Source: Escherichia coli
Lineage (GTDB): Bacteria; Pseudomonadota; Gammaproteobacteria; Enterobacterales; Enterobacteriaceae
Direction: 5' to 3' (one strand)
Assembly (NCBI RefSeq): GCF_024223415.1
Contig: NZ_CP100500.1
Length of the DNA: 64,000 bases
Under the pieces are notes generated by a model that worked only from the letters and a program-made list of their open reading frames with translations, had not been told where the DNA came from and did no database searches. The first letter of the stretch is position 1. Each line of letters begins with the position of its first letter. Of this stretch, positions 614-14,343 are shown one piece after another. Made by a program: the position numbers and the translations under genes.

Positions 614-1357
614 TTAAGATGAAGCGTTCGCTATCTGAGCGTCGCTGAATGTGAAACCCGCCTGTTTAAGACGCTGGATTAAGCGGGGTACTGTCTCCCG
701 AACATGGTCATTAAAGTTGAGATAAAGAATACCGGCGGCATCAGAAGGCTGCTCAAGGTGTTGTTTCTGCAGGATGACCACGTTACTGCGACCGAGTGAA
801 GATAACAGCATCCCCATTTCTAAAACTACGTTTTGGCGTGCCCTGGGCTGGGCTGCTTCCTGGCCGTCTCTTTTGGCGTATCCCACATCATCGGGAGTGA
901 GGAGAACAATGCCGAAACGCGTCGCTGTCCGTCCCTGACCAATTTCACGTTCAAGCTCTTCAATTATCGTAAGCCCGGTCCCACCGGTATTCTGCAAAAT
1001 AAAATGGTCAGGTAATCCAAGCTTATGAAGAATAAGTTCAAGCTGCTCTTTTGCTACATGATCGTGACCGTGAACGATGAAAATCTTTTTTGCTGGTTCT
1101 TGCATCATGACTGGAGCGTTACCCAGGTGTTCATTAATAATGGCTTCAACCTCAGGTTTTGCCGCTTGTGAACCCTGAATCAAAATCGTTCCGGTGTGGT
1201 AAAGCGTTATGATGGCACCATTACTTAAACGATAACAATCATGACCGGTTTTGTTTTCTTCTCCGGTAACATCAAATCCGGATTCGACTAAAAATTGACG
1301 AAAAGTATCGACAGCGTATGGGTATTTGAGTGCCATTTCATTGAGTTCCTGCATCAT
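614..1357 (-). CDS. Two-domain protein: unknown ~85-aa N-terminal domain plus C-terminal TIR-like domain (FIVHGHD ... LLTPDDVG ... RARQNVVLEMG ... LGR motifs, as in the CAP12/PycTIR-type TIR-like family). Candidate defence/abortive-infection effector
   Basis: 247-aa ORF; motif pattern recalled from the predicted nucleotide-binding TIR-like family; gene is bracketed by an exact 15-bp direct repeat and followed by a hairpin with T-tract. Confidence 0.5.
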   Translation of the reverse strand: MMQELNEMALKYPYAVDTFRQFLVESGFDVTGEENKTGHDCYRLSNGAIITLYHTGTILIQGSQAAKPEVEAIINEHLGNAPVMMQEPAKKIFIVHGHDHVAKEQLELILHKLGLPDHFILQNTGGTGLTIIEELEREIGQGRTATRFGIVLLTPDDVGYAKRDGQEAAQPRARQNVVLEMGMLLSSLGRSNVVILQKQHLEQPSDAAGILYLNFNDHVRETVPRLIQRLKQAGFTFSDAQIANASS

Positions 1358-1410: not shown

Positions 1411-3477
1411 CTAATCTTTTCTGTAACGGTACGCCTCGAATCCTCCGGCGTTTAGTGGAATGCTCGTGGCCCAGTCAGGAACGGTTGCCAGTAACTGGCT
1501 GAGATGTTCTGCTGAGTAATCGGGTGAGTCAGGGGCCTCACTTATAATTTCATCGTGTACCGTCAGCACAATGCTGTAACCGGCATCTTCGATAAGCGGC
1601 ATGTTTCCGGCCAGAACGTCGCGGGCGGCCGCCTGGGTGACGTTCTCCACCAGCTTTCCGCCGTAGGTTTTGAGTCGTTGCCATTTACGCGAATAAGAGT
1701 TAACACCCATATAGGTGATATCCCCTTTTTCGATAACCGGAGACGGGTAGCATACAGCGCGTCCGGATGGTAGCTGTATGCGCAGCCACGCGCCATCGCG
1801 GCGGATTTTAAGATAACCGCAATACAATGTTTTTTGCGGTGTGGCGATTGCAGTGCGGACGGTGCGCTCCAGTTCGTACCAGAAATCGCAGGTCGCCGGG
1901 TGCGCCCTGCGCCACAGGCGCTTGAGCGAGTCACATGCGATGAATACACGCTCGGACAGGCCAAAGGTCGACTTACGTTTAACCGATTCGTCGTACCAGC
2001 TTTTCGCCTCGCGGATAACATCGCGGGGAATGTTTGGCAGTGCGGCGTTCGCCAGCTCGTCGAGATCGAGACCGTAAACCAGAGCAAAAGTGATGAAAGC
2101 CGATACACCACCTCCATAACCCAGACCGAGTTCCATGACTTTACCGATCTGACGCATGTGTTTATCAACATCATCTGGTGCAATATCGAAAGCTTTTGCA
2201 TACGCCAGTTTATATAAGTCCGGACCCGTTCCGGCGTCGTACTCTCTGAATGCATTCAGTTTCCATTCTTCTCCCGCCAGCCATGCCAGCATACGGCCTT
2301 CAATGTTCGACAAGTCACTTACCACCAGTTTTTTGCCTGTTGGCGCGATAATGCAGCCACGTAACGCTGAACTGGTTAGTTCCATGATATTGTCAAACAG
2401 CAGGTCTGCACATCCGGCTTTCAGTGCTTCGATGCCTTCGTCTATTTGTTCCTGTTTTAGTGAAGGGCGGGGAAGGTTCTGGGGCTGGAATAGCCGTCCG
2501 GCCCAACGACCGGTACGTGACGCCCCGCAGAACTGTAGCGTACCGCGTAAGCGCCCGTCGTGGCTTACGCCTTTCATCAGTGCCTTGTATTTACTGGTGC
2601 TGGTAGTACTGGCCTGCAGGCGGATAGCCAGCAGTTCTTTCACGGCAGATGGTAAATTGGGGTCGGCAATACGACGTTCCAGAGTACTGCGTTGCATGTC
2701 TGGTAGCTCCACACCGTAGGATTCAACAATGTGCTTAATCAACGCGTCCCGTTGTGTGGCTGCCTGCACTTCGCCATCAGTCATTTCCTGTGTACGCTTT
2801 GCCAGGCGCTTTTGCTCCTGGTCTACCGCTTCGATCGCAGCGCGCGCGAGTTGAATGTCCATGCAGACGCCCCGGTCGTTGATCTGCTGATCACGATGCC
2901 AGAGTGCCAGTTCTGTCCCCTGATAATTCCACTTCGGCAGACGTTTATAGACTTCGCGCATTGCCTCGATATCCAGTCCGGCGTAAGCAACAAAGCGCCG
3001 CCATTCTTCCGGGTGGGTTTTGCTGGTGGCCCGGCGCAGTTTGCTGTTTTTCGGGCGTGGTTTGCACAGTAGCTGAATTAGTGACTTGCCTTCTTTATCC
3101 TTCGCTTTGTCCTGCGGGACGCCCAGCACTTCGCAAAGAGCGCCCAGCGCCCCCGGAAGACCATGCGCCAGCGCCTGCACCATTGTGTCGCGCCAGCGTT
3201 CAGTAGCTGGTGACATGTCTGGCATACAATGACGAAGTATCGTGCGGTCAAAGTGCGAATTGTGCGCCCAAACCTCCACATCCGGGTTTTTGAGTGCGAG
3301 ACGTAATTCCGGGGGGATTTTTTCGCCTGCGGTCAGGTCCCACACCTGCACGGGATCGTTATTGATGGCCCAGGCAAAAAGCATAATTTCAGCGCCTTCT
3401 GCATATGCGTGGGTACCGTTTTTTATCGGTATTTCAGAGAAGGTTTCAAGATCGAGCCAGAGAATGTTTGCAGGCAA
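1411..3477 (-). CDS. Phage family-A DNA polymerase with N-terminal DnaQ-like 3'-5' exonuclease
   Basis: 688-aa ORF; exonuclease motif LDLETFS near the N-terminus; polymerase motifs [16 protein letters not shown] (motif B-like K...YG) and VHDEI (motif C-like). Confidence 0.85.
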
Positions 3478-3546
3478 AACAGGACCCTCCGTAAATTAAA
3501 CGGCTACAAAAAGCCCCTGACAGTGCAGGGGCGGGATTGATTTGAA

Positions 3547-4311
3547 TTAACGAGGTAAGGCTGGTGGAATGTATCTGCCGATGCGGTCTTCTATGGTCGG
3601 CAGAATGCACATGCTGTCGCTGAAGCGGTCATGCAACTGGTAAACCAGTTTAGAATCCATTTTTTCGAGAGCAGGCATTAACTGCGCCCGCCAGATTTCG
3701 TTGATGCGCCGGAAGTTATGACAGACGGCGCGGAGATTGTTGATGAACATTTCCTTCTCTGCGTCAGTGACTTCTGTCTGTGTTTTCTGAATACGCTTTG
3801 TGCTGCCATTCCGATAGAAGCGTTCCTGAGCAGCAACAGCCTCATCCACGGTTGGATAGCACCCTACGTAAACGCTCTTCTCTCCGTTCCATGCGTAGGC
3901 TCTGTACGGGTTGTATTTGCTCCGGTGATGGTAAACCATCTTCGGCAGACACTCCCTGTGTGGCGCCAGTATCGTGGAGGATTGCTGGTGCAGTTTGCGT
4001 TCGCACTCGATGAAGTATCGGCGGATCTGGCGGCCTTTTTCGTTGCGCTCCACCATCGCCAGTTCTTTGGCCGTGTCGAGGGTGAGGTGGTAGTCCTTAC
4101 AAAGAACATTTTTACGCTTTCCAGTTTTGGAAAACGTTACGATATAATCCTGATTTTCAACGAATTCATAGTCTGCAATTCGTGATGTAATCCACGCTGC
4201 AAACACTTTCCCTACCCCAAGGAATGCGTGCAGATCGCGAGCATTGCAGAGCAGGGTGGTTTCGTTGGCGATAGCGCCGTTGAAAACGGGGATGAGTTGA
4301 GTTGCCATCAC
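3547..4311 (-). CDS. Protein with AntA/AntB-type antirepressor N-terminal domain
   Basis: 254-aa ORF; N-terminal LIPVFNG ... LHAFLGVGKVFAAWITSRIADYEFVENQDY ... YHLTLDTAKELAMVERNEKGRQIRRYF resembles the AntA/AntB antirepressor domain. Confidence 0.55.
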   Translation of the reverse strand: MMATQLIPVFNGAIANETTLLCNARDLHAFLGVGKVFAAWITSRIADYEFVENQDYIVTFSKTGKRKNVLCKDYHLTLDTAKELAMVERNEKGRQIRRYFIECERKLHQQSSTILAPHRECLPKMVYHHRSKYNPYRAYAWNGEKSVYVGCYPTVDEAVAAQERFYRNGSTKRIQKTQTEVTDAEKEMFINNLRAVCHNFRRINEIWRAQLMPALEKMDSKLVYQLHDRFSDSMCILPTIEDRIGRYIPPALPR

Positions 4312-4469
4312 AGTTACCTCTAACGGTGAAATTCACCGCCACCACTGAGTTGCAAATCTCATATGGGTGGCGAACTGACGAGGTTTGCAATACCGGCGTT
4401 AGAGGAAACCGGCGCGCCGAAGCGCCCCCGCCAGCCCGCCATAATGCGAACGTGGCAAAGCTTGCGACA

Positions 4470-4500
4470 ATAAAAAAGACGCTGGCGCGTCTGGTGTCGC
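4470..4500 (-). terminator. Rho-independent terminator-like hairpin downstream of the DUF2815 gene
   Basis: On the minus strand, AGACGCGCCAGCGTCT hairpin followed by TTTTTTATT (plus-strand aataaaaaagacgctggcgcgtct). Confidence 0.5.
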
Positions 4501-4691
4501 CCCTAACAATTCCGGGTTGCAAATCCCGATCTCCATTTGGGAGATTCGGTGAGCATAAACCGGAAGGGGGCGATGAGTCAATATCGGGGTAGCAGGGCGA
4601 CTGGGTGCTAACCAGAACAATACAGGTAGCTCCGGGCATATTCCCCTTTGCAAAAACACCCGGCGTTTAACCGGGCGTCTGTGAAGCAGGA

Positions 4692-5240
4692 TTAAATCAG
4701 TGCTTCAGCATCAGCACCTTCGCTGATATCGTCGAAATCGTCAGCGCTTGCCACTCCGCCGCCAGCGAATGCATCGCCGTCTCGCAGGAACTGGACTCCG
4801 CCGAGTGAGGCATTAATGCGTTTACCGAAATTATTGTCCTGTGCCCAGATATCGATAACGGCGTTTACATAGCACCCTGCATAGGGACGTCCATCAGCCT
4901 GAGTAAGTGGCGAACGATCGCGATCAAGAACAGCCGGGCGCGCTTTGTTAGCAGCATTCAGGAAGAAATTACCGGGGAAACCTTCATACTCTGCTTTTTC
5001 ATCGCCGTCATGCAGGCACAGATTGAGTTTCTTCTCCAGTTGGTTATAAACAGCCTCCCACTTCTCTCCCCATTTTTCCTTTGCGACCTGCTTCATTGCT
5101 TTACGGATTTCTTCCAGTTGTGGGTGTTCGGGAGACATTAAAAATACAGCGGAGAAACGCGGATCGCCTTCGCCGTTTACAGTTTTAGCTTCAAACAGCG
5201 CAGGAAAAGCCAGACGAACATTGTTCAGCTTCAGTTTCAT
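4692..5240 (-). CDS. DUF2815-type phage protein (putative ssDNA-binding protein of the PolA/DUF2800 replication module)
   Basis: 182-aa ORF starting MKLKLNNVRLAFPALFEAK, acidic C-terminal tail; adjacent to DUF2800-like gene as commonly seen in phages. Confidence 0.55.
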   Translation of the reverse strand: MKLKLNNVRLAFPALFEAKTVNGEGDPRFSAVFLMSPEHPQLEEIRKAMKQVAKEKWGEKWEAVYNQLEKKLNLCLHDGDEKAEYEGFPGNFFLNAANKARPAVLDRDRSPLTQADGRPYAGCYVNAVIDIWAQDNNFGKRINASLGGVQFLRDGDAFAGGGVASADDFDDISEGADAEALI

Positions 5241-5255
5241 TATATGTCTCCTTAA

Positions 5256-6560
5256 TCAGATGAGGTCAGCGGCGAGCGCGTCGTCGGACACGTCATCGAA
5301 ATCATTTACAGGGTTAATATTGAGTGCGGGGCGCGGATCTGAATCAGGAACGACGGTGGGTTTACCGTCCGCTCGTGTTATCAGGGCCTCGACTTTTGGC
5401 CAGCGGCGCGGACTGGCTTTTTTGATGAGTTTTTCTGCTTTGGCAGGGCTAATCAGTTTAAAGTCGAAAACTTCTTCAGTTTTATACCTGAACTGATCCT
5501 TCAGAAGAGCTCGAGCTGCTTCCTCATCACTCCAGGTCCGGTTACCTTGTTTTCCTGTTACCAGTTTAAACCCCGGTACCGTATGCCCGGCATGGAGTTC
5601 ATTGTGAACCCGGTCACGTAGCGCTTTGCAAAAAGACTCAATCAGGTCAACATGGCTGTAAATGTCTGCCAGTTGTTCAGCGGTCAGTAGTGGTACACGC
5701 TTAACGGCATCTGCGAGTTGCTCGCCAACGGGTCTGCTCAGGTCAACGAAGTCGTCCGCAACGGCGTTAAGTCTGGCCTGTGCTTCTGCTGAACACAGCC
5801 CACCTTTTGCTTTACAGAAGAGGCACTGTTTCTCGCCTGGTGTGAAGTTTTCAGGTGGCAGGGTTTCGACGCCTTCGCAATCGGCGATGTTGAACATCAC
5901 GATCACACTGGCGGCAGCTTCCTGCGCCCGTTTGCCGAATGCCTGCAGTTCCTCCACCGTCAGGGACCACTCTGAAACGTGGTTAATCCGCGGCTGGTGG
6001 ATGAACAGGCGCACCGTCTCGAAGTCGTACAGAAGGCTGAACTGCTCGAGCACGCCCAGGGCATACAGCTGCAACTGCTCGTTCTGCTCAGCGTCGACAC
6101 GCACTCCCTTACCGTATTTCAGGTCGTGGATCTGCAGTTCGTTACCCGCGATGATTATGCAGTCGGCAGTTCCGAAAGAGTCTTCCACACCGACGATGTG
6201 GGAGAAGTCTACGCGTTGCTCAACCAGCAGCGTGTTGCCCTGTGCCAGTGACCAGACTGTATCAACATACCGGCCAACGGCTTCGACCATTTCCTCATCC
6301 ACCTGTGGGCCAGATGTATCATCAGGATTTGCGCGAAGGGGGTATGAGCCGAGAAACATAGAAACATTGCATCCGGCGTAGTGTTCCGGGTGACTTTGCC
6401 TGTTTCGCAGGACTTTTTCTGCAAGCGCGTGCGCCGCAGTACCTTCAACAGCAAAGGATGTTTCTTTGTCAGGCTGAGTGGACTCCAGCGCCAGACTGCC
6501 GCTACAACGCATCCATCTGTGGGCGGCTGATGGAGATAATTTTGCATGAACCTCGGGCAT
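5256..6560 (-). CDS. DUF2800-type PD-(D/E)XK nuclease-like phage protein
   Basis: 434-aa ORF; N-terminal [15 protein letters not shown] motif typical of DUF2800; C-terminal cysteines ([11 protein letters not shown]). Confidence 0.6.
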
Positions 6561-6562
6561 AA

Positions 6563-7486
6563 TTAACCCTCCAGCGCTTTTTCAGCAAGGGCTATCACGT
6601 CTGCGAGTTTATCGTCAGCGACTTCACCGAGTTTTCTGGCTCCCTGTTTTTCCAGAATGGCAATAGCTTCTGCCCGGTAACCGCCTTTTGCAAGCTGGAG
6701 GATCAACCCTTCGGCCTGTTTACGCAGTGCAGCAAAATCGGTCTGTTCGCCAGTATCTTCCACGGCATCACCACCAGTTTCGGTACCGCTTTTTGCTGCG
6801 TCTCTGCGTGCAAATTCTTCCTGCAGCTGAAGGTACTCAACACGGTTGATCTCGATATGGCCTTTTTTCAGCATCTCGTTCAACTTGCGTAAGGTGTGGA
6901 GTTCACTGGCTGCTGTGCCGGATACATTTTTGACGTAAAACGGCCCCGTGCGTTCTCCATCTTTGTTACTGGCCTTTTTCGGCTTAACTTCATCACGCCC
7001 ATCTGCAGGTGCATCAAGTAGCTGCTCGGCAAAAGCACGTCGCTCGCCGATAGTTGGCAGGTCGTCCCAGAACTTAAGAATGTTGCGGGACAGGTCCAGA
7101 AGAGCGGGTTTATGCAGTGCCCTGGCTCGTTTGACGCACTGCAATGTGCTGTCGAGAGCATCAATCTGAACTACTCGTTTATCACCTTCAGCATCACGGT
7201 AAGCAACAGCTCGTTGCAGCATGTCTTCAGTAACAGGGGTAGCTGACGGGTAGAAACCAGCCAGTGCGATAACGTCGCTGAACTCCAGATCATCCAGTGT
7301 CATTACCGCTTTATTTTCAGTTTCATCTGCTGTTTCGGTTGCTGTATCCCGACATTCCTGTACTTGTGAAATGGCGTCAGGATGCATAACAATACCTGAT
7401 GCCATTGTGCGGATAAGACGTTCAAGCAGCACATTATGTTGCGCCAGAAGTTGGTTATTAAGTTCGAGACTGGTTTCTAAGCTCAT
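6563..7486 (-). CDS. Hypothetical phage protein
   Basis: 307-aa ORF, tightly packed in the leftward operon (ends 1 bp before the next gene); no motif recognised. Confidence 0.5.
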
Positions 7487-8266: not shown

Positions 8267-8893
8267 TTATCTTTTGCGGCGGTAAATACGATGTTCAATC
8301 ATGACCCCTACGATCTGTAAGGGGACATCTGCACTTCGTAGCACGGGATAGTCGGGATTCAGGGGGACCAGTTCAAAATCATCAACGCCGATACCCAACG
8401 GGCGGTATTTTTTGAAAGTGGCCTCATACCCGTTGTTCTTTGCAACGACGAATTCGCCAGGCATGGGGCATAAATCCGGGTCAATTATTACAATATCGCC
8501 TTCCTTAAACTCCGGTTGCATACTGTCACCATCTATCCGCAGGGCGAAGCAGGACTCAGGTACGTCGGAATCCGCGAGAACGTATTCCATATTTCCATCC
8601 ATGTCCGTAGCGTCTTTTGCTTCCGTTAGCGCACCGGCCTGTACGTAACTGAGGATCGGGATGCGGCGGGTACTTATTTCCGCCAGGGGCATTATATTCC
8701 TGCCATTTAAAAGCCAGTCGGGACTGCATTTCAGTGCCTTTGAAAGCTCTATGATGTTGCGGGGCTTCCGGGTCTTTCCGCTTTCAATAGTCTCAATGGA
8801 TTGCTGGCTGACCCCCGCGATTGCTGCAACTTCTGTTTGTGTCATCCCGAGTTCTGTACGGCGTGCTTTAAAGCGTTCTGCAAGTGACATGGT
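8267..8893 (-). CDS. cI: cI-like prophage repressor (XRE-family HTH plus S24 LexA-like peptidase domain)
   Basis: HTH GMTQTEVAAIAGVSQQSIETIESGK and peptidase region LRIDGDSMQPEFKEGDIVIIDP; start taken at MSLAERF (AGGGGG RBS) rather than the ORF-track start at 8956; divergent from the cro-like gene. Confidence 0.85.
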   Translation of the reverse strand, partial: TMSLAERFKARRTELGMTQTEVAAIAGVSQQSIETIESGKTRKPRNIIELSKALKCSPDWLLNGRNIMPLAEISTRRIPILSYVQAGALTEAKDATDMDGNMEYVLADSDVPESCFALRIDGDSMQPEFKEGDIVIIDPDLCPMPGEFVVAKNNGYEATFKKYRPLGIGVDDFELVPLNPDYPVLRSADVPLQIVGVMIEHRIYRRKR

Positions 8894-9006
8894 GTACCCC
8901 CTGATTCCTGATTTTTTGCTCTCCCTTATTAATACAATTTTTGTTGTAGTTGACAAACATCATTTATTGTCGCTAAATACCACATAAATTGTAGGAGACA
9001 ATAATC
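8894..9006. promoter_or_regulatory. Divergent cI/cro intergenic control region (oR/pRM/pR analogue)
   Basis: 113-bp AT-rich spacer between divergent repressor genes containing ACCACA-type half-site repeats (taccacataaattgtagg) also seen left of cI. Confidence 0.5.
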
Positions 9007-9216
9007 ATGACACTTGCTACCCGAGTAAAAAACCAGCGTAAGGCTCTTGGCCTGACGCAGGTTATGCTGGCAGAACGCACAGGGATTAGCCAGCAGGCCA
9101 TTAACCGCATTGAAAGCGGCCTTATATCCCGTCCCCGTTATCTGCTGGAAATAGCTGTTGCCCTGAACTGCGACCCTAACTGGCTGTTGCATGGTACTCC
9201 CGCGGATAAGACGTAA
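9007..9216 (+). CDS. cro: Cro-like HTH repressor
   Basis: 69-aa ORF with XRE HTH (LGLTQVMLAERTGISQQAINRIESG), first rightward gene. Confidence 0.8.
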   Translation: MTLATRVKNQRKALGLTQVMLAERTGISQQAINRIESGLISRPRYLLEIAVALNCDPNWLLHGTPADKT

Positions 9217-9219
9217 CTT

Positions 9220-11364
9220 ATGGCCCAGATCAATCTCTCATACGGCCGGGAACTGGTAGACAACCTTCCTGTGCCCTGTACTGATGCCGATTTTAACCGG
9301 ACATTTAAGCGTGTTAAAAAGTGGGCTCGTGCTATCGGCGCAACCAAACAGGATACAAAAAGCCAGCTTAACGCCAAAAAAGCGCGTCTGCCCTACATCT
9401 GGCACGCAATGAAGGACGTCACCAAAGGTCGTAACGCTGCTAATGCGGGCAACCGTGATGTGCTCTTCATGGATATGGACGGCTGTAACGCGCCTGCATG
9501 GGGCGCTTTACGCGATGCGCTGGCCTGTTTCTCATGTTTCACCTATTCAACGCCAAGTCATCTGCACCCCACTGCAAACGGGGAACATCGCTGGCGTATC
9601 TGCCTGGAGCTGAGTCGCCAGGTCACGCCCGAAGAGTACAAGCGTCTTGGCCTTGCGGTTGAAAACTGGCTGATGGATTGTATCAGCCTGCTGGACGATT
9701 ACACCGTCAAGTGGGACCACAGCGTTTACAACCCGGACCATATGGTTTTTGCCCCTGATGAAAAGGCCATCTTTGAACGTTTTACCGGGGAACCTGTTGA
9801 CGTTGATATCCTGTTGGCCAGCGCACCGGAAGTTACCATCCCTGAAAAAGCATCTTCCACAGACCGCGATGATTTGTCACGCGCTGTCGAACTGAACGGC
9901 ATCAGTCAGGAAACTTTTGACGACCTGCGCGAAGTGATGTGGCATCCGGCTGTACTGGCAGACGCTGAGCCGGGTTGCGGTAAATACCATAGCTGGGCGG
10001 CGATGGGAAATCGTCTGGCATGGTTTAAGGGAACCGACTGGGAAGACGCAGCCCGTCAGCTTTGGGTCGACTGGTCGATAGCGGGTGGTGGCGATGGCAT
10101 CAGCGCTGAACATAAATGGGACAGTAACCAGCTTACCGCCGAACGAACCGGTTACCAGGCCATTTTCGCCCATGCGCAGAAAGCAGGGGTCGCTAACCCC
10201 GCGACCGACCGTATGCGCGGTTTTGTCGCCGGTGCGAATGACTTCGACGAGTTGCCACCGGAAAAACCGGAGCTGCCAAAGTCCAGACCGCACACAGGCG
10301 GCTACGGTAAGCCGGGAAAGTTCATCATTGAAGGGATGGTGCCGCACGGGGTGACCATGCTCTATGGAGCTTCGTCATCGTTCAAATCCTATGGCGTTAT
10401 CTCCATGCTCTGCCGTGTGGCGACGAAAACTCATCGCTGGGGCGGGCGTAACCTCAAAGGTGGCGCTGTTCTGTATGTTGCCGCTGAGGGTGGCAGCTCC
10501 GTTATGCCGCGTGTCGGCGCATGGGCGGATAAGTACAATGACGGTAAGCCACTGGATTTGTTCTACACCCTGCCACTGGCGGTTGATCTCTCTGTCCCCG
10601 CAAACGTCACAAAGATGGTAAACGAGATTAAGCGCATAGCGTACCACACCGGCGAACCTGTCCGGCTTGTGGCCGTCGACACGCTGTCGCAGTCCATGAT
10701 GCAGGGCGAGGAAAACAGCGCCAGTGATGTGGCAAAATTCATGGCGGGCGCAACCAGGGTGTTCACCGAAACGGGCGCAGCGGTGATTATCGTTCACCAC
10801 AGCGGCAAAGACAGCAGTAAGGGGATGCGTGGCTCTTCTGCTGCCTTTGCTAACGCCGATGCGGTCATTCGCGTGGAACGCATCGGCGACGCGGTGAACC
10901 TGATTAACGAGAAACAGCGTACCGGTCCGGTACAGCCGACCCGCGGTTACATGGTACCGACAGTGCAGCTTCCTGACGACGTTATCGCGGCTAACGAAAC
11001 GTACGATGATGAGTATACCAGCACTGAAGGGGAAGTATATGACCCTGTAAGGCTTACCACCGAGCGCGTGTTTGAAGATGCACCAATGGCGGAGATCACC
11101 CCACTGCTGGTGGATAAGGGCGACGGGAATACCAAAGGCAGCAGCGATGAATCCTGGGTATGGGAAAAGCTGGAGGCCTCCGGCGGCAGCATCAACCGTT
11201 CTGCGCTTCGCGAGTTATGGAAGGATGAAACCGATAAAAGTACCGGTCAGTTACGTGCGGTTCTGGGGCGCATGAAAGAGAAGTATTACATCGTTGAGCG
11301 CGACGGCGTAATCAGGGATCCGCTATGCAATGGCGTACCACCTGGAGGGGATGAAATTGCTTAA
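9220..11364 (+). CDS. Replicative primase-helicase (N-terminal primase-like region, C-terminal RecA-fold AAA_25/RepA-like helicase)
   Basis: 714-aa ORF; C-terminal Walker-type region with LVAVDTLSQS and IIVHHSGKD motifs typical of AAA_25/DnaB-like helicases. Confidence 0.7.
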   Translation: MAQINLSYGRELVDNLPVPCTDADFNRTFKRVKKWARAIGATKQDTKSQLNAKKARLPYIWHAMKDVTKGRNAANAGNRDVLFMDMDGCNAPAWGALRDALACFSCFTYSTPSHLHPTANGEHRWRICLELSRQVTPEEYKRLGLAVENWLMDCISLLDDYTVKWDHSVYNPDHMVFAPDEKAIFERFTGEPVDVDILLASAPEVTIPEKASSTDRDDLSRAVELNGISQETFDDLREVMWHPAVLADAEPGCGKYHSWAAMGNRLAWFKGTDWEDAARQLWVDWSIAGGGDGISAEHKWDSNQLTAERTGYQAIFAHAQKAGVANPATDRMRGFVAGANDFDELPPEKPELPKSRPHTGGYGKPGKFIIEGMVPHGVTMLYGASSSFKSYGVISMLCRVATKTHRWGGRNLKGGAVLYVAAEGGSSVMPRVGAWADKYNDGKPLDLFYTLPLAVDLSVPANVTKMVNEIKRIAYHTGEPVRLVAVDTLSQSMMQGEENSASDVAKFMAGATRVFTETGAAVIIVHHSGKDSSKGMRGSSAAFANADAVIRVERIGDAVNLINEKQRTGPVQPTRGYMVPTVQLPDDVIAANETYDDEYTSTEGEVYDPVRLTTERVFEDAPMAEITPLLVDKGDGNTKGSSDESWVWEKLEASGGSINRSALRELWKDETDKSTGQLRAVLGRMKEKYYIVERDGVIRDPLCNGVPPGGDEIA

Positions 11365-11379
11365 TTTTACCAATTTGCA

Positions 11380-11640
11380 GAAAGCTACAAATTTGCATAA
11401 AAATGCAAAAATAAAATATATGCAATTTATTTGCATAAATAGTCAGCGCAACAAAAATTTTAAGCAGCAAGCGCAACACGATGCGCAACAGCGCAACAAA
11501 AAATGTTGCGCCGCTGATTTTAAAGGCTTTTTTAACCGCAACAAGAGCAACACGACGGCTAGCGTAGTGGCGCAACACAATACCCCTCTCCCCCCTTTAG
11601 GGGGGAGGGGTTTGTTGCGCCCGAGCCGTTGCGGTTTTTA
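11380..11640. repeat. Candidate replication origin: AT-rich tract, multiple GCGCAACA iterons (direct and inverted) and a perfect 12-bp-arm palindrome
   Basis: GCGCAACA or its complement TGTTGCGC occurs repeatedly; palindrome cccctctcccccctttaggggggagggg at 11583..11610; TGCATAAA/TTTGCATAAA repeats at 11391..11445. Confidence 0.5.
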
Positions 11641-11687
11641 TTCATTTAAATGCATATGCAATGCTGGTGAATGATAAGGGGGTGCAG

Positions 11688-12386
11688 ATGCTGACAGCAA
11701 TCAACAACGAAAAAATTGTCATCGCAAGGGACGCGCAGAAACCGGGAATTTTCGCCTGCCCGGAATGTGGTGAAGTTGTCACCCTGCGGAAAGGTTCGGT
11801 GAAAGTTCACCATTTCGCCCATCGCAGCACCACATCCTGCGGTTACGGGAAAGGCGAATCTGAGTTGCACATGGATTTGAAAATGCAGGTCTATGACGCG
11901 TTGAACGCGCATCGTGAGGTGGAATATGTTGCGATGGAGGTCGCAGTCGGTGATGTTCGTCCCGATGTGCTGGCGATTATTCGGGGTCAGAAGGTTGCTT
12001 TTGAGATTCAGGTTAGTTCGCTGAGTATTGAAGACCTCTATCGCCGCACGGTTGCGTACGCAGCTCAGGACATTGCGATGATCTGGATCCTGCACTGGCC
12101 TGAAGGTACTGCACTGGACCGGCTTTATCACCCTGCATCATGGGAGCGATGGTTACATACTTGCGGAATGGCAACTCTGTACTTCTGGGCGGGCGATGGC
12201 TGGGTCAGGCCAGTGCGTCTGGGAAACCGACAACATGGATTACAAAGAGCACCTCGTGCCCATCTGGTTGATGATTTCGAACCAAAGCGAACAGGCGGGT
12301 GGATTAAAGGTGATTTTCTGATACCTGCTCGCTTTATCTGGAATCGTGTGCGACGGCAAAAACGTAGAGGTCAGAGCTATGCGTAA
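11688..12386 (+). CDS. CoiA-like protein (competence protein CoiA-like family, predicted nuclease)
   Basis: Start at ATG 11688 (AAGGGGG RBS); N-terminal CPECGEVVTLRKGSVKVHHFAH zinc-finger-like segment typical of the CoiA-like family. Confidence 0.5.
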   Translation: MLTAINNEKIVIARDAQKPGIFACPECGEVVTLRKGSVKVHHFAHRSTTSCGYGKGESELHMDLKMQVYDALNAHREVEYVAMEVAVGDVRPDVLAIIRGQKVAFEIQVSSLSIEDLYRRTVAYAAQDIAMIWILHWPEGTALDRLYHPASWERWLHTCGMATLYFWAGDGWVRPVRLGNRQHGLQRAPRAHLVDDFEPKRTGGWIKGDFLIPARFIWNRVRRQKRRGQSYA

Positions 12387-12813
12387 TATTCAACAGGTTT
12401 TAGAGCGCTGGGGTGGCTGGGCTGCCAATAGCAACACCACAGTGAGCTGGGCTCCAATAGCGGCGGGATTTAAAGGGCTGGTAGTCAGCAGCCTGCCTGG
12501 CAGGCTGAGTTGCTGCGACGACGATGGCCTGATTATCGATGCTTGCGTCTGTCGGCTGCAGCAGGTCCGTAAGCCTGAGGAACTGGACGTCATTATGCTG
12601 TACTACGTCTACGGGTTAAGCAAACGTGAGATAGGACGGCGGCGTCGATGTTCTGAAGGATTTATCCGCCAGCAGTTGCAGGTAGCTGAGGGATTCATTG
12701 AGGGGTGTCTCTGCATGCTGGGTGTGAGCCTTCAGATGGATCCTGAGGTCGAAATTCAAAGGGATGAAAAAAGTATTAGTGCGCTACGCAAAAACTGCGC
12801 TACGCTGGTATGA
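12379..12813 (+). CDS. Q: Late-gene antiterminator Q (phage 21/82-type Q family)
   Basis: Sequence MRNIQQVLERWGGWAA ... resembles lambdoid Q antiterminators; position immediately upstream of the lysis cassette. Confidence 0.7.
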   Translation: MRNIQQVLERWGGWAANSNTTVSWAPIAAGFKGLVVSSLPGRLSCCDDDGLIIDACVCRLQQVRKPEELDVIMLYYVYGLSKREIGRRRRCSEGFIRQQLQVAEGFIEGCLCMLGVSLQMDPEVEIQRDEKSISALRKNCATLV

Positions 12814-13403: not shown

Positions 13404-13536
13404 TTCAATGGAACATAATAATGAAAAATCCAGAGAGCACTCTGGAAACAGCAAACATTATTCCATTGCTCATTCATTCGGCGGCTTTCGTGATGTAGTC
13501 GGACAGGGTGCTGAGAGAGAACAGGAGAGTAATACA

Positions 13537-14343
13537 ATGACTCAAAACCATGAACTGGTTGTTAAAGGAACCCGAAATTTTGAGAATAAAATTGCGGTGA
13601 TTTTAACCCTGCGTGACAAAAAGCGTTTTGCCTGTGAGATATTTGACTTACACATCAACCTTGAACGACAGGAAGGCGCCACTCTGGAGTTTTATGAGTC
13701 AGAGGCAATAAAACGGGCAAAGACATTGTTCCGGGATGTTGCTGCAGGGTTATGTGAAGGGGACGAGCTGTCGCCGGAAAAGCGCCCCATAATTTTACAG
13801 GCGCACAATGTGTGGATAACCTACAAAGGAAAGCTACCGGGAAGAATTACTGGTTCTCTGAAGATGCCGCCGTCAACACTGCGGTCAGAAAAAGAGGCGT
13901 CTTGTCTGCAGTCTGAGTACTCCATTACGGTTAAAAGTGCCGGAGAGGAAGGAAATAAACGTTATTTTATTGCGTCTGCACCTGATAAAGATCAGGAATG
14001 GGAGTGTAACCGGCCATCCTTTGTTGTATACGGAGATGGCGGGAAAATAACCATCTCAGAAAATGGGAAATTAACACCGCCATCGCACCAGCATAGTGAG
14101 GCGCTCATTGAATTTGCCATTGATTACCTGAAGAACAATAAAAAGCAGGGGCTGATGAAGCGCATTGGTCGTTGCATGGGATATCTGCAGGTAGCAGCTG
14201 AGATTGAAATGATGGCCAGTGGTGCTGACAATGATGCAGTTGTGCTGGAGGCTCTTCTGCGTGATTTTGATAATACGCCCTTTAAGAAAGCACCTGTTGA
14301 CTGGATGCAGCCGGGGATGACTTATCTGAAAGGGCGTATATAA
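13537..14343 (+). CDS. Hypothetical protein (moron inserted between holin and endolysin)
   Basis: ORF track frame 13408..14343; preferred start ATG 13537 preceded by AGGAG; no recognised domain. Confidence 0.45.
   Translation: MTQNHELVVKGTRNFENKIAVILTLRDKKRFACEIFDLHINLERQEGATLEFYESEAIKRAKTLFRDVAAGLCEGDELSPEKRPIILQAHNVWITYKGKLPGRITGSLKMPPSTLRSEKEASCLQSEYSITVKSAGEEGNKRYFIASAPDKDQEWECNRPSFVVYGDGGKITISENGKLTPPSHQHSEALIEFAIDYLKNNKKQGLMKRIGRCMGYLQVAAEIEMMASGADNDAVVLEALLRDFDNTPFKKAPVDWMQPGMTYLKGRI

What the first reader, a model, noticed from the sequence alone, without database searches (positions are those of the whole stretch)
11688..12386. CoiA-like putative nuclease encoded between the origin and Q
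The nin-equivalent region here consists essentially of one gene encoding a CoiA-like protein, a family of poorly understood function associated with competence/DNA processing. It is an unusual occupant of this phage slot and may act in recombination or in degrading competing DNA.
Basis: partly seen in the sequence, partly recalled or inferred. Interest (0 to 1): 0.4.

Follow-up and report, generated by a model that had tools for sequence, protein, structure and literature searches.

The report
Phage CoiA-like nuclease beside replication helicase
A prophage gene just before the late-gene switch encodes a short relative of the bacterial competence nuclease CoiA; in phages this gene usually follows the replication helicase, so it probably cuts branched DNA during phage replication, but no experiment has tested this.

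Summary
ORF 11688-12386 (+, 232 aa) passes Pfam's curated thresholds for CoiA_N (zinc finger) and CoiA_nuc. It keeps the family's PD-ExQ catalytic residues (D93, E106, Q108, R120) and is under purifying selection.

It is not a canonical CoiA. Only residues 1-136 are homologous (37% identity to Enterococcus CoiA). Residues 137-232 form a β-rich domain with no Pfam match and no neighbour among solved structures. It belongs to a large short-form subfamily (at least 496 clusters at 50% identity) found outside Bacillota.

In enterobacterial prophages the order is fixed: repressor, cro, AAA_25 primase-helicase, iteron origin, CoiA-like, Q. In IMG/VR viral contigs, 12 of 16 evaluable short-form genes follow a primase/helicase. 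Chromosomal homologues do not.

The gene and its helicase each occur in 1 of 5,426 complete E. coli genomes. Sister prophages with VapE or DUF5906 replicases have no nuclease gene before Q.

Best reading: a lytic-cycle, structure-specific endonuclease that is an accessory of the replicase cassette. It sits where λ has Rap/NinG and DLP12 has RusA. The function is inferred, not shown. I call it a new variant of a known kind, of moderate interest.

The parts
11688..12386 (+). CoiA-like short-form nuclease gene (232 aa)
   Evidence: ORF. Pfam CoiA_N and CoiA_nuc above cut-offs. 22-sequence alignment with invariant C24 C27 H42 H45 C51 E57 H61 K65 E84 D93 E106 Q108 R120. AlphaFold2 model pLDDT 94.6, pTM 0.90. 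dN/dS 0.11-0.24.
11736..11843 (+). Residues 17-52: N-terminal zinc finger (CoiA_N; CPEC...HHFAH)
   Evidence: PF25164, 49.1 bits against a cut-off of 26.3. C24, C27, H42 and H45 are conserved.
11856..12095 (+). Residues 57-136: PD-(D/E)XK core with a PD-ExQ active site (E57, D93, E106-x-Q108, R120)
12096..12383 (+). Residues 137-232: subfamily-specific domain (two helices plus β-strands) with a basic tail; function unknown
11676..11682 (+). Shine-Dalgarno sequence AAGGGGG, 5 nt upstream of the ATG
   Evidence: Read directly from the sequence.
11365..11650 (.). Origin-like region. It has an AT-rich stretch, GCGCAACA iterons (direct at 11446, 11471, 11483, 11491, 11570; inverted at 11504, 11613), and a palindrome at 11569-11621 around a G/C hairpin.
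   Evidence: The architecture is kept with lineage-specific iterons in relatives.
9220..11364 (+). Primase-helicase replication initiator (714 aa, AAA_25 core), the conserved upstream partner gene
   Evidence: PF13481, 98.9 bits, plus PHROG primase/helicase families. Identity of C-terminal residues 601-714 tracks the iteron type.
12379..12813 (+). Q antiterminator gene, overlapping the CoiA-like stop by 8 nt
   Evidence: PF06530, 170 bits.
9007..9216 (+). cro-like HTH gene, first gene of the rightward operon
   Evidence: HTH_3, 56 bits.
8267..8956 (-). cI/LexA-type repressor (HTH plus Peptidase_S24), divergently transcribed

Best explanation
The gene encodes an active, metal-dependent, structure-specific DNA endonuclease of the CoiA superfamily. 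It has an N-terminal zinc finger and a PD-ExQ variant of the PD-(D/E)XK nuclease core. It belongs to a short subfamily whose C-terminal domain is its own.

The gene is the last early gene of the cro / primase-helicase / origin / Q operon, so it would be made only during lytic growth.

I infer that it works on the branched DNA produced by the phage's own replication and recombination: 5'-tailed junctions, the displaced strand of D-loops, or stalled or reversed forks. It would act alongside the adjacent primase-helicase in one of two ways. It could stabilise or extend strand-invasion intermediates for recombination-dependent replication. Or it could remove branches from concatemers before packaging.

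That makes it the positional and functional counterpart of Rap/NinG in λ and RusA in DLP12, and a phage parallel to the RadA/CoiA helicase-nuclease pair.

Shown here: the domain homology, the conserved catalytic residues, purifying selection, and synteny with primase-helicases. Inferred: the substrate, the cooperation with the helicase, and the timing of expression.
For: - Domain assignment above curated cut-offs.
- The catalytic D93, E106 and Q108, together with R120, are invariant in 22 homologues. D93 stays invariant and E106, Q108 and R120 stay at least 90% conserved in 127. D93 and E106 align with the RPD and ExQ motifs of Enterococcus CoiA. These are the motifs that hold D95 and E105, the residues whose mutation abolishes S. 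pneumoniae CoiA activity.
- CoiA cleaves 5'-tailed ss/dsDNA junctions and the displaced strand of D-loops, and acts synergistically with the DnaB-type RadA helicase.
- The order repressor, cro, AAA_25 primase-helicase, origin, CoiA-like, Q is fixed in E. coli, Salmonella, Erwinia, Yersinia and Xenorhabdus prophages, although their late modules differ.
- Divergent CoiA-like alleles (41-44% versus 57-77% identity to the window protein) sit behind helicases whose cores are 68-87% identical to the window's. The slot was refilled by a homologue, not by an unrelated gene.
- In IMG/VR, 12 of 16 evaluable short-form loci have a primase/helicase directly upstream. The types are AAA_25, Prim-Pol, Prim-Pol+AAA_25, D5_N+DUF5906 and NrS-1-like. 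One further locus follows a Helicase_C_2 helicase.
- The gene and its helicase are each found in only one of 5,426 E. coli genomes, and it is the same genome.
- Sister prophages with the same Q allele but VapE or DUF5906 replicases lack any nuclease gene before Q.
- λ and DLP12 carry junction endonucleases (NinG/Rap, RusA) close upstream of Q.
- dN/dS is 0.11-0.24.
Against: - There is no biochemical or genetic data for any short-form member.
- The C-terminal domain differs from canonical CoiA and has no known fold neighbour, so substrate specificity may differ.
- The association runs in one direction only. 76 of 80 viral AAA_25 helicase relatives have no CoiA-like gene within 4 kb.
- Chromosomal homologues sit in unrelated contexts.
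- The partner helicases belong to several superfamilies, which argues against a specific physical complex.
- The near-identical prophage in E. coli F1022 also encodes a VRR-NUC protein and a DUF2800 PD-(D/E)XK nuclease. The window itself has DUF2800. A resolvase-type function may therefore be redundant.
- Lytic-only expression is inferred from gene order. The promoter scan was uninformative.
Confidence: 0.55

Rival explanations
1. Origin-directed nickase. The nuclease cuts the structure formed when the initiator helicase melts the adjacent origin (a bubble, or the extruded palindrome at 11569-11621). This creates the nick that converts theta replication into rolling-circle replication.
For: - The gene lies about 40-70 bp downstream of an iteron origin in at least 8 lineages with different iterons.
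- A conserved palindrome or hairpin flanked by inverted iterons sits next to it.
- CoiA nicks supercoiled plasmid DNA.
Against: - CoiA-like identity does not track iteron type. It is 44% with identical iterons in Erwinia but 57% with different iterons in Xenorhabdus. The helicase C-terminus does track iteron type.
- Three lineages place the gene directly after the helicase, or after an intervening ORF, with no iterons between (L033, L011, L031).
- Adjacency may simply reflect that the origin lies at the end of the helicase gene.
Confidence: 0.12
2. Offensive or defensive nuclease. It degrades host DNA or co-infecting phage or plasmid DNA, or it acts as an exclusion or anti-defence factor.
For: - It is a nuclease carried by a mobile element.
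- The CoiA_N-type zinc finger also occurs in the defence proteins PD-λ-4B and DruB (weak PADLOC hit, 22.6 bits, residues 6-49 only).
Against: - The PADLOC hit covers only the zinc finger. No PD-λ-4 model is hit and no partner ATPase is present.
- The gene is embedded in the repressor-controlled early operon, not in a moron with its own promoter.
- Its synteny with replicases is strict, unlike typical defence cargo.
- Its characterised homologue is structure-specific, not a bulk DNase.
- No self-protection system, such as a methylase or DNA modification, was seen nearby.
Confidence: 0.12
3. Okazaki-primer or 5'-flap processing nuclease for the phage replisome. The phage's family A polymerase shows no recognisable 5'-nuclease domain, and this protein would supply that activity.
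For: - CoiA cuts 5'-tailed duplexes at the ss/ds junction, which is a flap-endonuclease-like activity.
- The gene is linked to primases.
- The window's PolA-like protein matches only part of the DNA_pol_A domain.
Against: - Sister prophages with the same polymerase module lack the gene.
- Host Pol I could serve this role.
- Some CoiA-like-bearing contigs show no polymerase nearby.
Confidence: 0.1
4. Selfish or dispensable passenger, such as a homing-type endonuclease or a decaying gene, with no role in the phage life cycle.
For: - The gene is absent from sister prophages.
Against: - Purifying selection.
- Catalytic residues are invariant or nearly so in 127 sequences.
- The position is stable across genera while identity falls to 41%.
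- The gene does not interrupt any other gene.
Confidence: 0.06

Closest known systems
CoiA of Bacillota (S. pneumoniae CoiA, B. subtilis YjbF; Pfam PF25164 + PF06054, COG4469)
   Same: - N-terminal C2H2-type zinc finger.
- PD-ExQ nuclease core with the conserved Arg.
- 37% identity over about 115 residues to Enterococcus CoiA.
- Even the N-terminal MLTA motif is shared.
- Both are paired functionally or genomically with a replicative-type helicase.
   Different: - 232 aa against about 320-390 aa.
- Matches only positions 1-80 of the 158-position CoiA_nuc model.
- Has a different, β-rich C-terminal domain.
- Encoded by a prophage of Enterobacteriaceae in a lytic operon, not a competence-induced chromosomal gene.
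- The preprint describes CoiA as restricted to Bacillota.
λ Rap (NinG) and RusA, the junction endonucleases of lambdoid nin regions
   Same: - Same neighbourhood: a small nuclease gene at the end of the early-right operon, close upstream of Q.
- Presumed role on branched recombination or replication intermediates.
   Different: - No sequence relationship. No Pfam, PHROG or NCBIfam hit to these families.
- Different fold class expected: Rap is HNH-like and RusA has its own fold (my own knowledge).
- Here the rest of the nin region is absent.
Phage VRR-NUC and archaeal Hjc Holliday-junction resolvases
   Different: - Only fold-level similarity, at 10-14% identity.
- These lack the zinc finger and the C-terminal domain.
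- A separate VRR-NUC gene exists in the closely related F1022 prophage.
PD-λ-4B (Vassallo et al. 2022) and DruB N-termini
   Same: They share the CoiA_N-type zinc finger.
   Different: - The similarity stops at about residue 50-66.
- No nuclease-core match and no partner ATPase gene.
- Not in a defence island.

Membership tests
CoiA family (PF25164 CoiA_N + PF06054 CoiA_nuc) | N-terminal C2H2-type zinc finger | tested here: met
   CoiA_N 49.1 bits against a cut-off of 26.3, residues 17-52. C24, C27, H42 and H45 are invariant in 22 homologues; in 127, C24 and H45 remain invariant and C27 and H42 are at least 90% conserved.
CoiA family (PF25164 CoiA_N + PF06054 CoiA_nuc) | PD-ExQ active site plus a conserved Arg in a PD-(D/E)XK fold | tested here: met
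CoiA family (PF25164 CoiA_N + PF06054 CoiA_nuc) | Full-length nuclease-like domain (158 model positions) followed by the long C-terminal region of canonical CoiA | tested here: not met
   Only model positions 1-80 match; a canonical Enterococcus CoiA matches 1-153. Residues 137-232 have no Pfam hit and no structural neighbour.
CoiA family (PF25164 CoiA_N + PF06054 CoiA_nuc) | Competence-induced chromosomal gene of Bacillota, required for transformation and acting with RadA | tested here: not met
   The gene lies in a lambdoid prophage of Enterobacteriaceae, between the replicase and Q. The role in transformation cannot be tested here.
CoiA family (PF25164 CoiA_N + PF06054 CoiA_nuc) | Structure-specific cleavage of 5'-tailed junctions and D-loops | not testable with these tools
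   This needs purified protein. Activity is reported only for S. pneumoniae CoiA.
Lambdoid nin-region resolvases (Rap/NinG, RusA) | Sequence membership in the NinG or RusA families | tested here: not met
   No such hit in Pfam, PHROGs or NCBIfam.
Lambdoid nin-region resolvases (Rap/NinG, RusA) | Position at the end of the early-right operon, close upstream of Q | tested here: met
   The stop overlaps the Q start. Compare λ NinG, two genes upstream of Q, and DLP12 rusA-ylcG-quuD.
PD-λ-4 / Druantia-type defence proteins | Match to the system's protein models and presence of the partner genes | tested here: not met
   PADLOC gives only DruB models, over residues 6-49 or 9-50 (22.6 and 14.2 bits). 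There is no PD-λ-4 hit, and the neighbours are a replicase and Q.

The most novel reading that the evidence does not exclude
Short-form CoiA-like proteins would be a phage-borne third example of the helicase/nuclease pairs described for transformation (RadA/CoiA, ComM/YraN). In this reading the nuclease cuts the strand displaced by the phage's own primase-helicase, at the melted origin or at D-loops. That cut commits the genome to rolling-circle or recombination-dependent replication. It would be a dedicated enzyme for the theta-to-sigma switch that has never been pinned to a protein in lambdoid phages.
Probability: 0.12. Interest if true: 0.75.

Novelty: new variant of a known kind. Interest (0 to 1): 0.42.

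Why it matters
CoiA has only recently been shown to be a structure-specific D-loop nuclease that works with a helicase, and the preprint reporting this describes it as confined to Bacillota.

This locus shows a large short-form branch of the same nuclease in Proteobacteria, cyanobacteria and their phages. It also shows that the phage copies are placed next to replicative primase-helicases and origins.

If the inferred role is right, the locus is a non-orthologous replacement for Rap/RusA-type resolvases. It would also offer a tractable E. coli or Salmonella prophage system for studying how a CoiA-type nuclease cooperates with a helicase.

Practically, the 'competence protein CoiA' label that pipelines give these prophage genes is misleading.

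Tried and rejected
- **Sequence-library searches.** PHROGs and NCBIfam gave no useful hit for the protein. A sequence search of PDB chains returned only chance zinc-finger matches with E above 0.1. The helicase has no PDB sequence relative.
- **Defence system.** PADLOC hits only the zinc finger of DruB. The 'CoiA domain' reported for PD-λ-4B is also only residues 1-66. I rejected membership.
- **Iteron-specific origin protein.** Rejected because CoiA-like identity does not co-vary with iteron type, whereas the helicase C-terminus does.
- **General AAA_25 helicase partner.** Rejected because only 4 of 80 viral helicase relatives carry the gene.
- **Fusion partners as functional hints.** Longer family members show no extra Pfam domain. 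The 961-aa ORF in L154 is probably an artefact of my own ORF calling.
- **Unavailable or failed tools.** The afdb50 fold library was not available. The search for related loci with the 127-sequence alignment failed for lack of conserved blocks. Model coordinates are not exposed, so I could not check that the catalytic residues cluster in space.
- **Promoter scan.** It found nothing informative on the + strand.

Full report
**1. Observation**

The + strand ORF at 11688-12386 encodes 232 aa.
- An AAGGGGG Shine-Dalgarno sequence lies 5 nt upstream of the ATG.
- The N-terminus MLxA is invariant in 22 homologues.
- RefSeq/PGAP calls the same 699-nt gene in E. coli F1022 and names it 'competence protein CoiA'.
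- The stop codon overlaps the ATG of the next gene by 8 nt. That gene is a Phage_antitermQ protein at 170 bits.

Upstream lie a divergent cI/LexA-type repressor (8267-8956, minus strand), a cro-like HTH gene (9007-9216) and a 714-aa primase-helicase with an AAA_25 core (9220-11364).

Between the helicase and the CoiA-like gene is a 320-bp region with three features:
- an AT-rich stretch;
- seven exact GCGCAACA iterons, five direct and two inverted, plus degenerate copies;
- a long palindrome (11569-11621) around a G/C hairpin. It folds as DNA at -24.8 kcal/mol, z = -5.4.

The PGAP 'hypothetical protein' ORF that overlaps this region has no family hit. No equivalent + strand gene is called across that gap in the Erwinia, Yersinia and Xenorhabdus relatives.

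**2. What the protein is**

Pfam gives CoiA_N (49.1 bits, cut-off 26.3, residues 17-52) and CoiA_nuc (54.5 bits, cut-off 20.3, residues 57-136). The CoiA_nuc match covers only model positions 1-80 of 158.

A canonical Enterococcus CoiA, recovered from a mislabelled 'phage' record, aligns over residues 22-135 at 37% identity (E 5e-19). It matches the Pfam nuclease model over positions 1-153.

Conserved residues:
- Invariant in 22 homologues: C24, C27, H42, H45, C51 (zinc finger), and E57, H61, K65, E84, D93, E106, Q108, R120.
- In 127 sequences: C24, H45, C51, E84 and D93 remain invariant. C27, H42, E57, H61, K65, E106, Q108 and R120 are at least 90% conserved.

This is the 'PD-ExQ plus conserved Arg' site described for CoiA (PMC1189080). 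D93 and E106 align with the RPD and ExQ motifs of Enterococcus CoiA. Those motifs hold D95 and E105, the residues whose mutation inactivates S. pneumoniae CoiA.

dN/dS against the 77% and 64% identical homologues is 0.11 and 0.24.

**3. The family**

An exhaustive profile search found 496 clusters (at 50% identity) with E ≤ 1e-30. The 150 best hits listed are mostly full-length matches of about 220-300 aa. There are 4,171 clusters at E ≤ 1e-10 and 13,795 at E ≤ 1e-3.

Named members and genome hits come from:
- Enterobacterales: Salmonella, Erwinia, Yersinia, Xenorhabdus, Serratia;
- Burkholderiales and relatives: Caballeronia, Paraburkholderia, Variovorax, Polaromonas;
- Lysobacter, Ferrimonas and Kistimonas;
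- cyanobacteria: Microcystis, Nostoc, Cylindrospermum;
- Acidobacteria, Nitrospirales, Desulfovibrio, and one Methanophagales metagenome-assembled genome.

This is a short-form branch outside Bacillota. The preprint that established CoiA's activity describes CoiA as restricted to Bacillota.

**4. Context**

The order repressor, cro, AAA_25 primase-helicase, roughly 270-330 bp gap, CoiA-like, Q recurs in prophages of five genera. CoiA-like identity in these relatives runs from 99.6% (nucleotide identity of the locus in F1022) down to 41% protein identity. The late modules differ: λ-like, Mu-F/portal_3 and P22-portal.

The gap always has the same architecture but with lineage-specific iterons: GCGCAACA, GCGGGACA, GTGTGCC or CGTGACA. 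More distant phages have AAGTGCG or ACGTTCAC. The inverted arms around the hairpin change along with the iterons.

Identity of helicase residues 601-714 tracks iteron type: 70-74% with the same iteron and 45-50% with different ones. CoiA-like identity does not: 44% in Erwinia with identical iterons, and 57% in Xenorhabdus with different ones. The helicase C-terminus is therefore the likely origin reader, and the CoiA-like protein is not.

Two divergent CoiA-like allele groups sit behind helicase cores that are 68-87% identical to the window's. Recombination has replaced the gene with a homologue rather than an unrelated gene.

In IMG/VR, 28 loci were found. Of the 16 short-form loci with upstream sequence available, 12 have a primase/helicase directly upstream. 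The types are AAA_25, Prim-Pol, Prim-Pol+AAA_25, D5_N+DUF5906 and NrS-1-like. Another relative follows a Helicase_C_2 helicase. The downstream neighbour varies: Q, a protease-capsid fusion, an HNH endonuclease, or unknown proteins. The gene is therefore typically the last gene of the replication module.

Limits of the association:
- 76 of 80 viral relatives of the helicase core lack a CoiA-like gene within 4 kb.
- Chromosomal homologues lie next to unrelated genes such as Mfd, SecA and Endonuclease I, or beside a Mu-like prophage remnant.

**5. Rarity**

The gene and its helicase are each present in 1 of 5,426 complete E. coli genomes, and it is the same genome.

There is no near-identical DNA match in 50,697 GenBank phage records. 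tblastn gives four weak matches:
- three are canonical coiA on questionable 'phage' records;
- one is an unannotated 302-aa ORF in the Brevundimonas jumbo phage Bambus.

The same Q allele is present in 104 E. coli genomes, but in 103 of them the match begins only about 20 nt before Q. In IAI1 and EC20017429 a VapE replicase and an intergenic gap precede Q. In B771 a DUF5906 replicase and a small hypothetical gene do. CoiA-like therefore travels with the AAA_25 replicase cassette.

**6. Mechanism**

S. pneumoniae CoiA is a monomeric, structure-specific endonuclease. It nicks supercoiled DNA. It cuts 5'-tailed duplexes at the -1 position of the ss/ds junction. It cleaves the displaced strand of D-loops and acts synergistically with the DnaB-type RadA helicase.

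The protein here has a conserved active site, belongs to the early lytic operon, and is linked to primase-helicases. The best-supported reading is that it processes branched replication or recombination intermediates of the phage (confidence about 0.55).

λ carries NinG/Rap, and DLP12 carries RusA and YbcO, close upstream of Q. This gene is thus a positional analogue and a probable non-orthologous replacement.

The main rivals are below; a fourth, a selfish or dispensable passenger gene (about 0.06), is covered in the Rival explanations section.
- An origin-nicking or theta-to-sigma role (about 0.12). It is weakened by the lack of co-variation with iterons and by lineages with no origin between helicase and nuclease.
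- An offensive or defensive DNase (about 0.12). The only link is the shared zinc finger with PD-λ-4B and DruB.
- A flap or primer-removal nuclease (about 0.10).

Caveat: the closely related F1022 prophage also has VRR-NUC and DUF2800 nucleases. The window has DUF2800 and an Enc34-type SSB. The role may be redundant or more specialised than stated.

**7. Verdict**

Refinements: this is a short-form CoiA-like nuclease, not a CoiA orthologue. It is the accessory nuclease of a primase-helicase/origin cassette. Recombination or replication-intermediate processing is favoured over degradation of competing DNA.

Novelty: a new variant of a known kind. My literature searches found no description of phage CoiA-like genes.

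Interest is moderate (0.42). The locus extends the newly described helicase/nuclease-pair idea to phages and contradicts the reported Bacillota restriction, but every functional step is inferred.

Noticed in passing
window 11365-11650: An origin-like region: an AT-rich stretch, seven GCGCAACA iterons, and a palindrome at 11569-11621 around a G/C hairpin (also flagged as terminator-like). Relatives keep the architecture but swap the iteron sequence (GCGGGACA, GTGTGCC, CGTGACA, AAGTGCG, ACGTTCAC). Identity of helicase residues 601-714 tracks the iteron type.
   Followed up: partly
window 11351-11674 (+): The ORF that PGAP annotates as a 'hypothetical protein' in the F1022 relative lies entirely over the iterons. 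It has no family hit, and no equivalent + strand gene is called there in the Erwinia, Yersinia and Xenorhabdus relatives. It is probably not a gene.
   Followed up: partly
window 614-1357 (-): A 247-aa protein with a CAP12/Pycsar-type TIR domain (PF10137, 107 bits) sits in the prophage left arm next to the family A DNA polymerase. The F1022 prophage has different genes at this position, including a VRR-NUC gene. It may be defence or counter-defence cargo.
   Followed up: no
window 1411-7486 (-): The left-arm replication and recombination module contains a PolA-like polymerase, an AntA antirepressor, an Enc34-type ssDNA-binding protein, a DUF2800/PDDEXK_1 nuclease and a 307-aa unknown protein. 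The prophage therefore brings its own polymerase as well as the primase-helicase.
   Followed up: partly
L013 (E. coli IAI1), L127 (B771), L128 (EC20017429): Sister prophages with the same Q allele carry VapE or DUF5906 replicases and no nuclease gene before Q. In IAI1 the same DUF2800/DUF2815 left-arm genes were also seen. The replicase, origin and (optional) nuclease appear to be exchanged as a cassette.
   Followed up: partly
L018 5001-5909 (Brevundimonas phage vB_BpoS-Bambus, ON529853): A 302-aa CoiA-like ORF in a 348-kb jumbo phage. Only its C-terminal 175 codons are annotated, as a hypothetical protein.
   Followed up: partly
L017 (OR846601), plus OR849341 and OR847541: GenBank 'phage' records from Enterococcus and Listeria carry canonical chromosomal-type coiA. 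The Enterococcus record, flagged UNVERIFIED_ORG, has a full-length 392-aa gene. The Listeria records are 1.9-2.6 kb fragments. They are probably bacterial DNA, not phage.
   Followed up: partly
window 13408-14343 (+): A 311-aa protein lies downstream of Q and the holin. It has an N-terminal DUF1327 (YdfR-like) region joined to a phrog_1085-type C-terminus. The F1022 relative has only a truncated YdfR pseudogene here.
   Followed up: no
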